In this document: one piece after another, positions 10,006 through 47,500 of the stretch
How the letters are laid out: every line of letters begins with the position of its first letter
Position numbering within the stretch: the stretch's first letter is position 1
Source of the DNA: Malacoraja senta
Lineage: Eukaryota
Assembly (NCBI GenBank): GCA_038087875.1
Contig: CM075991.1
Coordinates: forward strand, 9,984,001 to 10,048,000
DNA: 64,000 nucleotides
Direction: 5' to 3'
The notes under the pieces: model-generated
Seen by the model: only the letters and a program-made list of their open reading frames with translations
Database searches by the model: none
What the model was told of the DNA's origin: nothing
Position numbers and translations under genes: made by a program

Positions 10006-10148
10006 GTTTAAGCCCTTTCCTAGTTGAGATCTCACCCAGGCATCTGCGTACCATTTCCCTGGCATCACCTCATGATGACGCTATGATCAAACATTTCCCA
10101 TATTGCAAATTGAGTCACACTTTAAAAATGAATCATTGGCTGTAAAAT

Positions 10149-10202
10149 GGGGTGGAAGATGGCAACCTTCACGTGGTCCACCCTGTTTCGCCGAATGCAA
10201 TC
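10149..10202 (+). ncRNA. Minimal HDV/CPEB3-like self-cleaving ribozyme (predicted)
   Basis: P1 GGGGUGG/CCACCCU with G1-U wobble; P2 GAUGGCA/UGCAAUC (one mismatch); P3 ACC/GGU; L3 UUCACGU; GU after P1; UUCG in place of P4; J4/2 CGAA with putative catalytic C at 10192. Confidence 0.8.
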
Positions 10203-10263
10203 AACCCGATGTGCACAAACAAGATCAAATAGAACAAGTTTACCGACAACTTTAGAAGAAGGA
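10149..10263 (+). mobile_element. Short (115 bp) ribozyme-headed SINE-like element, probably Ingi/Vingi-derived (copy A)
   Basis: TSD ggctgtaaaat(g) at 10138-10148 and 10264-10274; agaagaagga tail; homologous to 43336-43476. Confidence 0.8.
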
Positions 10264-10364
10264 GGCTGTAAAATGTGTTGTCACATTTGGTAAGGAATGT
10301 TGGAATGTTAAATCAATTCAAGACGCTGCTTCACGTCATGTCCTTAAAGTAGCAGGTCCCTGCC

Positions 10365-10840
10365 TCACCCCCAGCAGGACCAAAAACAAGACCTGTCAAA
10401 GGGCGGATGAGCTTCTAGCGAGCCAACAGCCATCCACTCTAAATCATCATCATCGTTGAAAACATCATCGACGCAGTGGTGCTGGTTTCCGACGGGAACG
10501 GTGACGGACGCACCACACATCTCTGTCCTCCATTCCCTGCGGACGTCCGCCACTGGATGTACAGGATTTTGGTGTGAGTGTGTGCTTTATCATCATTCCT
10601 TACAATGCCGTGTACGACAGTGATCACAACTTCTACTGAAGTGTGGATGGTCGTTGGCTCGCTAGGAGCTCATCCGCCCTTTGACAGGTCTTGTTTTTGG
10701 TCCTGCTGGGGGTCCACAGCCCCCTCCTCACCTGGCAAACCAGGTGGGAGAAACGGTTTAGTCGCCGACTATCCGACCATGAGGCAGGTAGCACGGGATT
10801 ACATGGTACCCGTGGCGGGGGGAACTCCCCCCCCGACCTG
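10365..10840 (-). mobile_element. Non-autonomous retroelement (RTE/RTE-X-like) with (GAT)n tail plus an inverted partial copy
   Basis: On the minus strand it ends ttttcaacgatgatgatgat at ~10442. 10368-10437 is a ~70 bp inverted copy of 10643-10712. Family assignment is from memory. Confidence 0.55.
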
Positions 10841-16420: not shown

Positions 16421-16969
16421 CAAACACGACTAGTGCAACAAATATCATCGTGCAGAAATAGCCAAACATTGTCAACCAAACCCAAGGCAGAATGTATTGG
16501 GAAGGAATGCGTTGACGAGCCCAGCAGTGAAGTGGTTAACAATGGTATTATGAATACATCTCTTGTTCTGCCTCTTCAGGGAAACCAATGCAGTTAGTTC
16601 CAAATATTGTGGACATCATAAAATCACCAGAAGCATCTGTCAGCACAGTGAGCTGCTATTTTCATTGTCCAATAGCAAATTTACACAGTGGAACACCTGG
16701 GCTGGATGGTTGTTTGACGAATTGTCGCGGGACAGTAGCCTGCATTTGTCTTCACTCCGGTTTCCTACCCTCCGTCTCAAACATGTGCTTTCACTTTTCT
16801 CCTCAGGCTCCAGGAAATAACAGGACAGTGAAGGCAGGAAAAAAACGATTTCTCTTCCAAAAGGTTGCCTCCTCCGAGGCCGATCCCAAAATAACGGCGA
16901 CGTGATGAGCCATTAATCATTCGGCGAGTTTACCAGCCCGAGCCACTAGGGTTTCATCCGTGCAGGGAT

Positions 16970-18762
16970 TGCCTGCCTGCCTGCCTGCAACCTGCCTGCC
17001 TGCCTGCCTGCTGCAACCTGCCTGCCTGCCTGCAACCTGCCTGCCTGCCTCCTGCAACCTGCCTGCCTGCCTCCTGCAACCTGCCTGCCTCCTGCCTCCT
17101 GCCTCCTGCAACCTGCCTCCTGCCTCCTGCAACCTGCCTGCCTGCCTCCTGCAACCTGCCTGCCTCCTGCAACCTGCCTGCCTCCTGCAACCTGCCTGCC
17201 TCCTGCAACCTGCCTGCCTCCTGCCTCCTGCCTCCTGCCTCCTGCAACCTGCCTGCCTCCTGCAACCTGCCTGCCTGCCTGCAACCTGCCTGCCTGCCTC
17301 CTGCAACCTGCCTGCCTCCTGCCTCCTGCCTCCTGCCTCCTGCAACCTGCCTGCCTGCCTCCTGCAACCTGCCTGCCTCCTGCAACCTGCCTGCCTGCCT
17401 CCTGCAACCTGCCTGCCTCCTGCCTCCTGCCTCCTGCCTCTGCCTCCTGCAACCTGCCTGCCTCCTGCAACCTGCCTGCCTCCTGCAACCTGCCTGCCTG
17501 CCTCCTGCAACCTGCCTGCCTCCTGCAACCTGCCTGCCTCCTGCCTCCTGCCTCCTGCAACCTGCCTGCCTCCTGCAACCTGCCTGCCTGCCTCCTGCAA
17601 CCTGCCTGCCTCCTGCAACCTGCCTGCCTCCTGCAACCTGCCTGCCTGCCTCCTGCAACCTGCCTGCCTCCCTGCCTCCCTGCCTGCCTGCCTCCTGCCT
17701 GCCTGCCTCCTGCAACCTGCCTGCCTCCTGCAACCTGCCTGCCTGCCTCCTGCAACCTGCCTGCCTCCTGCCTCCTGCCTCCTGCCTCCTGCAACCTGCC
17801 TGCCTCCTGCAACCTGCCTGCCTGCCTCCTGCAACCTGCCTGCCTCCTGCCTCCTGCCTCCTGCCTCCTGCCTCCTGCCTCCTGCAACCTGCCTGCCTCC
17901 TGCAACCTGCCTGCCTGCCTCCTGCAACCTGCCTGCCTCCTGCAACCTGCCTGCCTCCTGCAACCTACCTGCCTCCTGCAACCTGCCTGCCTCCTGCAAC
18001 CTACCTGCCTGCCTCCTGCAACCTGCCTGCCTCCTGCAACCTGCCTGCCTGCCTCCTGCAACCTGCCTGCCTCCTGCCTCCTGCCTGCCTGCCTCCTGCA
18101 ACCTGCCTGCCTCCTGCCTCCTACCTGCCTGCCTCCTGCAACCTGCCTGCCTCCTGCAACCTGCCTGCCTGCCTCCTGCAACCTGCCTCCTGCAACCTGC
18201 CTGCCTCCTGCAACCTGCCTGCCTCCTGCAACCTGCCTGCCTCCTGCAACCTGCCTGCCTGCCTCCTGCAACCTGCCTGCCTCCTGCCTCCTGCCTGCCT
18301 GCCTCCTGCAACCTGCCTGCCTCCTGCAACCTGCCTGCCTGCCTCCTGCAACCTGCCTGCCTCCTGCCTCCTGCCTCCTGCCTCCTGCAACCTGCCTGCC
18401 TCCTGCAACCTGCCTGCCTCCTGCAACCTGCCTGCCTGCCTCCTGCCTGCCTCCTGCAACCTGCCTGCCTCCTGCAACCTGCCTGCCTGCCTCCTGCAAC
18501 CTGCCTGCCTCCTGCCTCCTGCCTCCTGCCTCCTGCAACCTGCCTGCCTCCTGCAACCTGCCTGCCTCCCTGCAACCTGCCTGCCTGCCTCCTGCAACCT
18601 GCCTGCCTCCTGCCTCCTGCCTCCTGCCTCCTGCAACCTGCCTGCCTGCCTCCTGCAACCTGCCTGCCTCCTGCAACCTGCCTGCCTCCTGCAACCTGCC
18701 TGCCTCCTGCAACCTGCCTGCCTCCTGCAACCTACCTGCCTCCTGCAACCTGCCTGCCTCCG
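16970..18762. repeat. Compound minisatellite built from CCTG, CCTGCAA and CCTGCCT modules
   Basis: About 1.8 kb; base unit cctgcaa-cctg-cctgcct (18 bp) with 22-bp and other variants. Confidence 0.97.
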
Positions 18763-19079
18763 CCCGCAGCCGGAGGGAGAAACGGGCTCAGCTAAAGGCA
18801 GGCAGGGAGTCACGGCCACACACACAACTCGACGGCCGACGGTCGCTCTCAGGGTCGAGGTGGGACAAAGGCAATGCCGCAAGACGACGGCGTGTTTGAA
18901 TTCAGATGAATCCTGTGTGTGTGTTTATGTATGTGTGTATGTACCTCAGGCACCTAGACCTACGTTTTAACGCACACTGTTGAAAGCAGGTGTGTGAGCA
19001 TAGATTGGGTTGTGTGCGTTGCATGTGCGTGAAAGTGTATCATGCTTGCGTGTGTGGAGTGTGTCAGTATGCATATCTG

Positions 19080-20292
19080 TGTGTGTTTGTACGTTGTGTG
19101 TGTGTTTGTACATGTGTGTGTGGTTGTACATGCGTGTGTGTGGTTGTACATGCGTGTGTGTGGTTGTACATGCGTGTGTGTGGTTGTACATGTGTGTGTG
19201 TGGTTGTACATGCGTGTGTGTGGTTGTACATGCGTGTGTGTGGTTGTACATGCATGCGTGTGGTTGTACATGCGTGTGTGCGTTTGTACATGTGTGCGTG
19301 TTTGTACATGTGTGTTTGTACGTGTGTGTTTGTACATGTGTGTGTGTGTGTTTGTACATGTGTGTGTGTGTATGTGTGTGTTTGTTGTGGTTTTTGTACG
19401 TTTGTGTGTGTTTGTACATGTGCGTGTATATGTGTGTGTTTGTACATGTGTGTGTGTACATGTGTGTGTGTACATGTGTGTGTGTACATGTGTGTGTGTG
19501 TTTGTACATGTGTGTGTGTACATGTGTGTGTGTGTTTGTACATGTGTGTGTGTACATGTGTGTGTGTGTTTGTACATGTGTGTGTGTACATGTGTGTGTG
19601 TGTTTGTACATGTGTGTGTGTACATGTGTGTGTGTGTTTGTACATGTGTGTGTGTACATGTGTGTGTGTGTTTGTACATGTGTGTGTGTACATGTGTGTG
19701 TGTGTTTGTACATGTGTGTGTGTACATGTGTGTGTGTACATGTGTGTGTGTACATGTGTGTGTGTGTTTGTACATGTGTGTGTGTACATGTGTGTGTGTG
19801 TTTGTACATGTGTGTGTGTACATGTGTGTGTGTGTTTGTACATGTGTGTGTGTACATGTGTGTGTGTGTTTGTACATGTGTGTGTGTACATGTGTGTGTG
19901 TGTTTGTACATGTGTGTGTGTACATGTGTGTGTGTGTTTGTACATGTGTGTGTGTACATGTGTGTGTGTGTTTGTACATGTGTGTGTGTACATGTGTGTG
20001 TGTACATGTGTGTGTGTACATGTGTGTGTGTGTTTGTACATGTGTGTGTGTACATGTGTGTGTGTACATGTGTGTGTGTACATGTGTGTGTGTACATGTG
20101 TGTGTGTGTTTGTACATGTGTGTGTGTACATGTGTGTGTGTACATGTGTGTGTGTACATGTGTGTGTGTGTTTGTACATGTGTGTGTGTACATGTGTGTG
20201 TGTACATGTGTGTGTGTACATGTGTGTGTGTACATGTGTGTGTGTACATGTGTGTGTATATGTGTGTGTGTACATGTGTGCATGTGTATGCA
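19080..20292. repeat. Compound (TG)n-TACA satellite
   Basis: 14-bp (tgtacatgtgtgtg) and 18-bp (with ttt) units, often alternating as a 32-bp higher-order unit. Confidence 0.97.
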
Positions 20293-20685
20293 TGCTTTGG
20301 TCACAAGAATACCACAGACTAGTGAGACTTAAGCAAAGTACACACTGCCATGTCACGGCAGAAAATATTAGGACAGGTACATGGATAGGAAGGCTTTAGG
20401 ACTAATGTGGGTAAATGGGACAGAATGCCAACACGGTCGGCATGGATAAGGTTGGCCGAAGGCCTTGGTTTTGTACAGTATGGCTCTGTGCCTCTGCAGT
20501 GACAAGATGGTGTTCCACCACACATAGCCTCCTGTGGCCTCTAGTTCTTGATTCTGACCCTGGGAGAGTGACCATTGCATTCACCTTGTCTACTTCCCTC
20601 ATACACGTTTTATACACTTCTATAAGATCACCCCTCAGCCTCTTGGTGCTTGCGTCCTTGCAATATTTAATTTAGTTTCGTTTTA

Positions 20686-43335: not shown

Positions 43336-43476
43336 CTTCTTCTTGCGTATGGCGTGCACAGCCTGAAGCTGTAGATCAAGTGGCATGAAAAACTACATCT
43401 ATTTGTTTGTGCAAGTCGGGTTGATTACATTAATCGAAACAGGGTGGACCACGTGAAGGTTGCAATGTCCCACCCA
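43336..43476 (-). mobile_element. Short ribozyme-headed SINE-like element (copy B; ribozyme region 43423-43476)
   Basis: gggtgggacattgcaaccttcacgtggtccaccctgtttcgattaatgtaatc...gccatacgcaagaagaag; imperfect TSD ggcactgtg / ggcactatg. Confidence 0.8.
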
Positions 43477-43883
43477 GGCACTATGCTTAAACTCCTCTGA
43501 AACCCAGCACAACTCTGTTGCCACTACTGTGCAGGATACTTCTCCATGCCTTCCCATGTTTCCACTTGCATGCACTACTGAGATGAATGTGCAATGTAAG
43601 GTGCCACAATGGTGCGGCCTCACGGCTCAGAGATCCGGGATCAACACCGAACTAGTTTAGTTTAGTTTAGAGATACAGCGCAGAAACAGACCCTTCAGCC
43701 CTCCGAGTCCGTGCCGACCAGCGATCCCCGTACACCAAAACTCTCCTACATGCAAGGGATAATTTACAAAAGCCAAATTAACCTACAAACCTGTACGTCT
43801 TTGGAGTGTGGGAGGAAACTGGAGCACCCAGGGAAAACATACGCGGGTCTACAGGTGCTGTCTGTACCTTCGAGAGGGGAGGG

Positions 43884-44535
<652 letters not shown>

Positions 44536-47500
44536 AATTTTCATGTTCTACCTCTGATAGTGTGGGTTTCCTGCAGATGCTCTGGTTTCCTCCCACAATG
44601 CCAACAATATGCAGCTGGGTAGGTGTATTTGCCACTGTAACCTGCCCCTGGTGTAGGCGAATAGTAGAATCTGGCGGAAGTTGACGGGAATGTGGAATGT
44701 GGGGAGAATAAAATGGGTTAGGTGTGAGAAGAGTGTAAAAATGTTTGCTGGCTTGTTGGTGTTTGGAGTCAGTGGGTCTGTTTTTGCACTTTAGTTTAGT
44801 TTAGAGATACAGCGTGGAAACAGGCCCACCGAGTCCACACTGACCAGCGATCCCCACACATTAACACTATCCTACACACACGAGGGACAATTTACACTTT
44901 TAAAAAGCCAATTAACCAACAAACCTGTACGCCTTTGGAGTGTGGGAGGAAACCGGATATCTCAGAGAAAACCCACGCAGGTCACGGGAGAACGTACAAA
45001 CTCCGTACAGACAGCACCCGTAGTCGGGATCTAACCCGGGACTCTGGTGCCAGAAGCATTGTAAGGCAGCAACTCCACTGCTGTGACAACGTGCCGCCTT
45101 TTTAACATTTTATTACGCCACTGTGTCCTTTCTCTCTATGAATTTCATGTTGCTCAGTTAAAGACACAAACTGATTATTTACAGAATGGTTAACAAACTG
45201 CTCAAGGTGCTGATTCCAGTGACTGGCATATGTCCCAATTCCTCTGGCTGCTTATTCCCAGAATGTTGGTGTCCCTCCTGCCCAGAAACTTTCAAAGGCA
45301 ACTGTGCACTTCTGCCATCAACAGTTTACATGGGAGGGAAGCATGGACAAAATGTCAAACAGCAGTCAGCATTGTGTTAAAGAAGGAACTGCAGATGCTG
45401 GAAAAATCGAAGGTACTCAAAAATGCTGGAGAAACCCAGCGGGTGCAGCAGCATCTATGGAGCGAAGGAAATAGGCAACGTTTCGGGACGAAACCCTTCT
45501 TCAGACATTAGCATTGGCTGGCAACGAATGGGAAGCAATTTTCTTTTGTAGTTTAGAGATACAGCGTGGAAACAGGCCCTTCGGCCCACCGAGTCCATGC
45601 CAACCAGCGAGCCCAGCACATTAACGCTATCTACACACACTAGGGACAATTTCCAATTATACCAAGCCAATTAACCTACAAGCCCACAAGTCTTTGGAGT
45701 GTTGGAGGAAACCGGAGCACCCAGAGAAAACCCATGCGGGTCATGGGGAGAACATACAAACTGCGTACAGACAAGCAGCACCCATAGTCAGGATCAAACC
45801 CGGGTCTCTGGCACTGTAAGGCAGCAACTCTACCGCTGCACCACCGTGACGCTTTTTTTTTTAAAGAGGCAAGCCAAATACTCCAATTTATGATCTTTGC
45901 TCTCCCTTAGCCTACCAGTCATCTTGTTAAGAGCAATGCTTTGCGACCAATAACACCTAGTTAAAGAAGTTGAAGAAGGGTCACGACCCGAAACGTCACG
46001 CATTCCTTCTCTCCAGAGATGCTGCCTGAGTTACTCCAGCATTGAGTTGGGTGGGACAAGTGTTTCAAATGAGTTTGCTGCTTTTAAACATAATAATGAC
46101 TTGTATTAATGATGTTGGCTTTTGCACTGATGTTGTTTACTGCAGTCTCATCTCAATGGCATCCATCCATGTGCAATAGAAATTAAGTCTAACTAAACCC
46201 ACACCTATCCACATGGACACGGACCTCCAGCAGAGGTTTACTGCAGCAATCAAGTCCATGAAACATTGCTATTTTTTCGCCCTCCCTGGCCATGCAGAGG
46301 GAAAATTAATTGTAATGGCCCTGGTGAAGTGCCAGCTGAGAGAATCTAATTCAGTACACACTGAAATCAAACTGGCAACATTCCTGGTCTATGTAAGCCC
46401 AATTCCATTGCAGCCAATACATTTACCATGCAGTTATGTAGCTTTAGAAGGATTTTAAATGTTTACTCTGATTCACAACGTATGGCTGCTTTCAACACTG
46501 TGTTAAATATTTCTTAGTAAAGTTCAGAGATACAGCATGGAAACAGGCCCTTCGGCCCACTGAGTCCGTGGCGACCAGCAATCCCCGCACACTAACACCA
46601 TCCCACACACGCTATGGACAATTTACAATTTTACCAAGCCAATTAGCTTACAAACCTGTATGTCTTTGGAGTGTGGGAGGAAACCGGAGCACCCGGAGAA
46701 AACCCACGAGGACACGGGGGGAACGTACAACCTCCGTACAGACAGCAACCATAGTCAGGATTGAACCCAGGTCTTTGTAAGGCAGCAACTCTACTGCTGT
46801 GCCACCATGACGCCCACGTTATATATATTTAAATATGTTTAAAAGGTGTTTGGATACGTAGTTGAATAGGAAAGAGATAAAGAGTGATAGGCCTAAATCA
46901 GGCAATTGGGATAAGTGTACACACATTACCACTTTCACCAGCAAAGATTTAGCCCCCTTTAAAAATGCTCCTCTCTTTGACCATAGGTTTGCCCTAGCAC
47001 CTTCTTATATGGTGCAGTTTCATATGTGTATATGGCAATGCTTTTTCTGAAGTGGCCTGCGATGTTTTGCAATGTTTGTTCCATTGGAGGTTTAATATAG
47101 CCACTGCCTTTTATTTTATTACACGTGGCTATTATAGGAAAAACGGCAATAATCCACGATCTACTCTTTCATAAATCTCAATGGTTCGGCACTTGTCTCA
47201 ACGGGTAATGTTTGCCGTGCTGTTTTCCAGCTGGCCTGCACCTCAGTTCCTGCGCTCCCATCCGACTCACCAGAGCTTCAACAAACCAAGGCCATGTTTC
47301 CCACTCTTCCTTTAAACTTAGTTCACAGACAAATTTATTATCATAAAGTGCCACAGGTGTTAAAAAAAGGTGAATGAATTTCCTTGATCATCATCTGCTT
47401 TGATCTGTTCTTTTCACATCTTACATGTTCTTTGTACCTTTCCATATATAGTTTTCTTCTCCCCGACTCTCAGTCCGAAGAAGGGTCTCGACCCGAAACA

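What the first reader, a model, noticed from the sequence alone, without database searches (positions are those of the whole stretch)
10149..10263. Mobile micro-SINE headed by a 54-nt, P4-less HDV/CPEB3-like ribozyme, with its 5' boundary at the cleavage site
Seen: the + strand folds into a complete nested double pseudoknot. P1 is 10149-55/10178-84 (7 bp, G1-U wobble), J1/2 is AA, P2 is 10158-64/10196-202, P3 is ACC/GGU and L3 is UUCACGU. GU follows P1, UUCG-C replaces P4, and J4/2 is CGAA (C10192). The 11-12 bp TSD (ggctgtaaaat[g]) ends at or within 1 nt of G1, and the whole element is 115 bp with an AAG-type tail. Established: HDV-like ribozymes process the 5' ends of R2, RTE and ingi/L1Tc retrotransposons. 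As I recall it, the mammalian CPEB3 ribozyme has the same L3 (UUCACGU), the same GU with a single C-G P1.1 pair, and J4/2 CGAA. Inference: this is a promoter-less SINE made of little more than a ribozyme and a LINE tail, cut out of host transcripts by self-cleavage and mobilised by an Ingi/Vingi-like LINE. It may resemble the kind of element from which CPEB3-type ribozymes arose. I do not know whether this family is already described.
Basis: partly seen in the sequence, partly recalled or inferred. Interest (0 to 1): 0.9.

Follow-up and report, generated by a model that had tools for sequence, protein, structure and literature searches.

The report
Ribozyme-headed miniature of a Vingi LINE
This is one of thousands of copies of a tiny jumping element made from the two ends of a longer retrotransposon, each starting with a stripped-down fold of a self-cutting RNA, and a sister retrotransposon in the same genome starts with an RNA much like the mammalian CPEB3 ribozyme, which hints at where that memory-linked ribozyme came from.

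Summary
The fold and the 11-12 bp target duplication are there, with corrections: this copy breaks one P2 pair, its CGAA is private (family CUAA, 55 of 63), and it lacks 18 nt of the family's 3' end. The head has 6,467 genomic matches; 37 of 41 copies picked by their 3' part begin within 2 nt of G1. I found the partner: a 3.1-kb single-ORF APE-RT LINE without RNase H (Vingi type) sharing both ends. So this is an internally deleted LINE like NARTc/RIME, not a classical SINE. The same fold, with compensatory changes, heads 10 of 18 distant relatives against 0 hits in 490 kb; all ten keep P4, this family does not. Cleavage is inferred, not shown. This family does not match Rfam's CPEB3 model, but a sister family in this genome does: up to 64 bits (cut-off 35), four top hits directly upstream of its ORFs. 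That points to a Vingi origin of the CPEB3 ribozyme; I could not read those sequences.

The parts
10138..10148 (+). Left copy of the target-site duplication
   Evidence: Identical to 10264-10274; duplications of 8-15 bp found at 30 of 41 other copies
10149..10202 (+). HDV-like ribozyme fold without P4; the 5' end of the parent LINE; predicted cut 5' of G10149, predicted catalytic C10192
   Evidence: same head on the LINE copy L127 from head position 9 on, 65 of 66 bases identical to a typical short copy
10203..10222 (+). Next part of the LINE 5' UTR
   Evidence: window 10156-10222 matches L127 at 94%
10223..10238 (+). Subfamily-A junction segment, origin not found in L127
   Evidence: unmatched; 510 genomic matches to the subfamily-A body, control 0
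10239..10255 (+). Last codons and stop of the LINE ORF (two substitutions in this copy); the 18-nt LINE 3' UTR that follows in most copies is missing here
10256..10263 (+). Short AAG-type tail
   Evidence: (AAG)n tails on short copies and on LINE 3' ends
10264..10274 (+). Right copy of the target-site duplication
43336..43475 (-). Second copy in the window, subfamily B (LINE 5' UTR up to the start codon joined to the last five codons and 3' UTR); the catalytic C is changed to T

Best explanation
A non-autonomous, internally deleted derivative of a Vingi-type LINE. It keeps the LINE's first ~75 nt and last ~35 nt plus the (AAG)n tail. Shown: the anatomy, the shared ends, the copy number, the 5' boundary at G1 and the conserved fold. 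Inferred: a copy lying in a host transcript is cut out at its 5' side by the HDV-like ribozyme; the LINE's endonuclease/reverse transcriptase, supplied in trans, binds the 3' end and inserts a cDNA copy by target-primed reverse transcription, leaving a 10-13 bp duplication. Because the ribozyme lies 3' of its cut, each new copy carries it again. This lineage has replaced P4 by 5 nt. The window copy is probably a weakened, inactive insertion (broken P2 pair, truncated 3' end).
For: LINE 3' ends predicted from the reading frame of the tail and found: 186 exact matches, control 0; 20 of them fetched, all ending in the same ORF end, short 3' UTR and AAG-type tail, with variable 5' truncation. Near-full-length copy L127 carries the same head directly before the ORF. 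Homologue P0004 (63-71% identical over the main segments) has APE and RT domains and no RNase H. 6,467 head matches at <=3 mismatches of 42, control 0. 30 of 41 copies chosen by their 3' part start at G1 and 37 of 41 within 2 nt. Fold at the 5' end of 10 of 18 distant relatives, 0 hits in 490,416 background bases and 0 in 200,064 bases around another LINE clade. P3 in a sequence-only alignment: 33 of 33 cells paired, 10 compensatory, 0 of 500 shuffles as high. A second family in this genome has its own head with different P1, P2, P3 letters. HDV-like ribozymes on L1Tc, NARTc and SIDER cleave in vitro (PMC4035085, passages).
Against: No cleavage assay. One RNA run of another organism that holds the element (X24, about 6% read) shows reads running in from flanks on both strands and no pile-up of starts at the head; the reference lacked the first 8 nt, the library was poly(A)-selected and most copies are decayed, so this is weak. 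A sharp 5' end at G1 is also what an internal promoter would give. The P4-less silkmoth R2 ribozyme has very low activity (PMC3774820, passages). In the family majority the 8 nt around the linker could form a 2-bp hairpin on UUCG that ties up the P1.1 G and the catalytic C (read from the sequence), and the 126-nt element's best nested fold pairs the G-run with downstream bases instead of P1. 8 of the 18 relatives show no descriptor hit (truncated, decayed or different; two of them, L129 and L153, not resolved by the descriptor). Only 550 of the 6,467 heads were tied to a subfamily body.
Confidence: 0.8

Rival explanations
1. The head works mainly as an internal RNA polymerase II promoter (and perhaps translation-start or protein-binding signal), as Pr77 does in L1Tc; the loss of P4 marks a ribozyme that no longer cuts, or cuts poorly, in this lineage.
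For: Pr77 is both promoter and ribozyme (PMC4035085, passages); P4 is kept in all 10 relatives with a descriptor hit and lost here; no RNA starts seen at the head; low activity of the P4-less silkmoth R2 ribozyme.
Against: All 17 pairs, G1-U, the L3 pattern and the J4/2 cytosine are intact in the family majority and identical between the LINE and both subfamilies; P4-less ribozymes are active in phages (PMC10879173, passages). The two roles are not exclusive.
Confidence: 0.17
2. A SINE in the strict sense, with a head from an independent small RNA gene fused to a LINE tail.
For: Size, tail and duplication look like a SINE; a 16-nt junction segment of subfamily A was not found in L127.
Against: The head is the LINE's own 5' end; no tRNA gene in the window; subfamily B runs through the LINE 5' UTR to its start codon.
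Confidence: 0.03

Closest known systems
NARTc/RIME/SIDER (non-autonomous L1Tc/ingi derivatives with the Pr77 HDV-like ribozyme); R2 SIDEs
   Same: Short internally deleted LINE, HDV-like ribozyme at the first base, mobilised in trans (PMC4035085 passages; PMC5786205 passages)
   Different: Animal host; parent lacks RNase H; about 125 nt; ribozyme of 54 nt without P4
Vingi clade and its non-autonomous internal-deletion derivatives (Vingi-1_EE, Vingi-2_Gav)
   Same: Single ORF, APE + RT, no RNase H, about 3.1 kb, bipartite derivatives (PMC13708176 and PMC5786205, passages)
   Different: [quoted passage not shown]
Minimal (P4-less) HDV-like ribozymes: drz-Mtgn-1, theta ribozymes; silkmoth R2 and an abalone ribozyme with 5 nt instead of P4
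   Same: P4 replaced by a short linker (PMC10879173; PMC3774820; passages)
   Different: Theta ribozymes are almost all in phages, next to tRNAs; here thousands of copies head a retroelement in a 1.94-Gb animal genome
Mammalian CPEB3 ribozyme (Rfam RF00622)
   Same: Same L3, GU after P1 (model consensus printed; one G-C plus U-U in P1.1 per PMC4836649, passages)
   Different: Focal family has another P3, CUAA, no P4, and no match at E<=10. The close match is the sister family

Membership tests
HDV-like ribozyme | Nested double pseudoknot: P1, P2, P3/L3, P1.1 | tested here: met
   one P2 mismatch in this copy; P1.1 as C-G plus U-U read from the sequence
HDV-like ribozyme | G1 paired at the base of P1, U-G in L3, catalytic C in J4/2 | tested here: met
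   C kept in 61 of 63 heads; C in all 10 relatives with a hit, where the descriptor required it
HDV-like ribozyme | Compensatory changes among relatives | tested here: met
   P3 on a sequence-only alignment; P1/P2 pair types tabulated from descriptor parses, which is circular
HDV-like ribozyme | Mg2+-dependent self-cleavage 5' of G1 | not testable with these tools
   RNA reads gave no sign either way
Rfam RF00622 CPEB3 (focal family) | Score above 35 bits | tested here: not met
   no match at E<=10 for the window copy or four subfamily-B copies
Rfam RF00622 CPEB3 (sister family in G000) | Score above 35 bits | tested here: met
   39 of 60 listed matches, best 64.2; sequences not read
Vingi clade (parent LINE) | Single ORF with APE and RT, no RNase H | tested here: met
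   L127 itself is broken by frameshifts and stops, the domain call rests on its homologue P0004
Vingi clade (parent LINE) | RT phylogeny with named Vingi elements | not testable with these tools
   no named reference; the tree holds only unnamed relatives; the clade name rests on architecture and on recall of the C-terminal motif
Bipartite non-autonomous LINE | 5' and 3' ends from one LINE, no ORF, target duplication | tested here: met
SINE (strict) | Head derived from a tRNA, 5S, 7SL or snRNA gene | tested here: not met

The most novel reading that the evidence does not exclude
An HDV-like ribozyme is the general 5' end of Vingi-type LINEs across animals, and the mammalian CPEB3 ribozyme is the domesticated first ~70 nt of one such element: a Vingi-type family in this genome carries a full-length head that scores up to 64 bits on the mammal-only CPEB3 model and shares its 13-nt P3-L3-P3' core exactly at 1,175 places. 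The focal element is the minimal, P4-less cousin of that donor lineage.
Probability: 0.6. Interest if true: 0.85.

Novelty: new variant of a known kind. Interest (0 to 1): 0.62.

Why it matters
The element itself extends a known device (ribozyme-made 5' ends of LINEs and their deletion derivatives) to the Vingi-type clade and supplies thousands of natural variants of a 54-nt P4-less ribozyme in an animal genome. Vingi-1 is being developed for gene writing with its native 5' UTR (PMC13708176, passages), so a ribozyme there would bear on template design. The larger point is the origin of the CPEB3 ribozyme: co-option from a mobile element has been suggested in general terms (PMC7761336, passages), but I found no named donor; name a candidate clade, which left a relic in the human genome (X12_LINE; PMC5753468, passages), and make the question testable by one alignment.

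Tried and rejected
Rfam scans of the site and window: nothing relevant. Endonuclease family PF14529 in the genome: the 30 loci read were a two-ORF LINE with no head match; rejected as partner. ORF listing and protein search of the window: no piece of the partner LINE. Nested folding cannot show the pseudoknot and gave z -0.37 and 0.20 for the heads. Viral contigs: no relative of the LINE; one 17-base match, with no descriptor hit, taken as chance. Sequencing runs: no holder on record as RNA among the indexed rows; 23 of 24 rows hold the stretch, under seven coded organism names. Bacterial promoter scan does not apply. The base before G1 was T in 25 of 41 copies; this reflects the target site, not cleavage, and was not used. 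MAFFT put P1 and P2 out of register across families, so only P3 was counted without bias. Other HDV-type models as controls: RF01787 no match, RF02682 none over cut-off. Earlier findings: none by sequence, place or the full word set. Kojima 2011, Ruminski 2011 and Webb 2009 were not held; Repbase and Dfam were not available; no supplements were opened.

Full report
Observation. P2 has one G-A mismatch. The duplication is 11 bp (10138-10148, 10264-10274), 12 if the G shared with the element's first base is counted. A double-pseudoknot descriptor scores the site 15; none of 3,000 shuffles of the surrounding 102 bases reaches 13, and no other place in the window does. Rfam has no match here.

Family. 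The window is G000 C15:9984001-10048000 in a 1.94-Gb assembly; I did not identify the species. A 42-base core of the head has 6,467 matches at up to 3 mismatches, reversed control 0. The usual unit is about 125 nt plus (AAG)n. To avoid choosing copies by their 5' ends I used searches with the 3' part only. Of 30 subfamily-A loci one was not parsed and four were dropped as duplicates; of the 25 left, 19 start at G1, one at 2, four at 3, and one is split by an insertion (L049/L050 look like one more duplicate pair). Of 16 subfamily-B loci (16 of the 40 listed), 11 start at G1, two at 2, one at 8, two near 50. Duplications of 8-15 bp were found at 30 of the 41, all ending within 2 nt of G1 in a search range of -2 to +12. 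Among 63 ungapped, de-duplicated heads from 76 loci, mean divergence from the majority is 3.3%, 37 keep all 17 pairs and the catalytic C, and J4/2 is CUAA in 55 and CGAA in 3. The window copy departs from the majority at 4 positions and lacks the last 18 nt, as does 1 other of the 30 loci. Exact-register bodies number 510 for A and 40 for B, so most heads are unassigned; length variants of the A-rich middle are visible and may account for many.

Partner. The tail reads as the last codons of an ORF. Adding a tryptophan codon at a recalled position gave 186 exact matches, control 0. All 20 fetched end in the same ORF end, and the longer ones show a C-terminal Cys/His finger and variable 5' truncation. 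A database homologue, P0004 (1,019 aa), has APE and RT domains and no RNase H. Searching the genome with it and crossing places gave L127, a decayed 3.1-kb copy whose head (from position 9) and 106-nt 5' UTR lead straight into the ORF; its own 3' UTR is disrupted. Subfamily B is the 5' UTR up to the start codon, with a small deletion, joined to the last five codons. This architecture is that of Vingi (PMC13708176, passages), and bipartite derivatives are described for RTE, Ingi, Vingi and R2 (PMC5786205, passages). The clade name is not confirmed by a tree with named elements.

Is the fold real? Of 78 metagenome loci encoding relatives, 18 have DNA upstream of the ORF start. A strict descriptor written before I saw them hit two, both at 5' ends, and nothing else in 252 kb besides the positive control. 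A relaxed one, written after looking, hits 10 of 18 there and 0 times in 490,416 other bases. On a sequence-only alignment of 11 heads P3 is paired in 33 of 33 cells with 10 compensatory cells; 0 of 500 shuffles and none of the slid registers reach that; two pairs of these heads come from close relatives, so the number of independent events is smaller. The bearers are spread over the endonuclease tree. A second family in G000 (48% to P0004) has its own head with other P1, P2 and P3 letters and a P4. All ten relatives have 20-55 nt between P1 and J4/2; the focal family has 7. P4 loss is known in phage minimal ribozymes (PMC10879173), silkmoth R2 and an abalone ribozyme with 5 nt in its place (PMC3774820), so it is rare, not new.

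Mechanism. Most likely (0.8) the ribozyme cuts the element's 5' end out of host read-through transcripts and the LINE protein inserts the RNA by target-primed reverse transcription, as shown for R2 and L1Tc/NARTc (PMC6765202, PMC4035085, passages). Cleavage is inferred. In RNA run X24 the element lies inside longer transcripts on both strands, with no pile-up of starts; this neither supports nor seriously weakens the model. An internal promoter in the same bases remains possible (0.17).

CPEB3. The focal family shares only L3 and the GU with CPEB3 and does not match RF00622; three distant heads score 16-18 bits. But RF00622 over the whole genome gives 39 of 60 listed matches above the 35-bit cut-off, best 64.2, over model positions 1-78, with 0 of 14 control genomes above cut-off; two other HDV-type models give none above cut-off. 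Hits ranked 1, 2, 6 and 11 end 29-59 bases upstream of ORF matches of a third Vingi-type family, 38-41% identical to P0004; that is 4 of the 9 such rows that reach the N-terminus, and only 59 of 102,231 candidates were scored. The exact 13-nt P3-L3-P3' core of the model occurs 1,175 times, control 1, including inside three listed hits. Against: active sites of HDV-like ribozymes are known to converge (PMC3774820, passages), G/C-run P1 stems score easily, and I could not read these sequences, so how far identity extends into P2 and P4 is open. The other hits were not tied to any element.

Literature. Ten searches showed no paper reporting a ribozyme on Vingi, this family, or a named donor for CPEB3. 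I saw passages only, of 15 papers. The three most relevant primary papers were not held and may include such elements under other labels, such as their lamprey, lancelet or abalone ribozymes; Repbase may already hold the family. Supplements were not opened.

Verdict. Real, and a new variant of a known kind: a very small ribozyme-headed deletion derivative of a Vingi-type LINE. Interest 0.62, mostly for the clade-wide ribozyme and the candidate origin of the CPEB3 ribozyme (probability 0.6, interest 0.85 if true).

Noticed in passing
G000 C21:8958106-8958189(-), C1:217550485-217550568(+), C1:153860770-153860853(+), C8:937615-937698(-): Heads of a third Vingi-type LINE family match the mammalian CPEB3 ribozyme model at 52.6-64.2 bits; its 13-nt core occurs 1,175 times, suggesting a further high-copy short derivative
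   Followed up: partly
L128 (G000 C1:165944075-165944355); 44 places: Second Vingi-type family with its own HDV-like head, P4 present
   Followed up: partly
L127:2745-3077: The LINE's C-terminal region is 82% identical in protein to P0002, named by NCBI as from the eel Synaphobranchus kaupii; possible horizontal transfer
   Followed up: no
window 10367-10440 and 10640-10713: 74-bp inverted repeat, 94.6% identical, MITE-like, just downstream of the element
   Followed up: no
window 10256-10269: The target duplication begins with the same six bases that follow the stop codon in full-length copies, exactly where this copy's 18-nt loss starts; microhomology may explain the loss, though L003 lacks the segment without it
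   Followed up: no
L061-L090: Young two-ORF LINE family with many intact 1,277-codon frames; the label Nimb/I-group is recalled
   Followed up: no
L127:1-39: The LINE copy sits inside what looks like a tRNA-derived SINE (loose ends)
   Followed up: no
window 16900-18900, 19000-20400, 43760-44560: Long simple or minisatellite arrays giving spurious open frames
   Followed up: no
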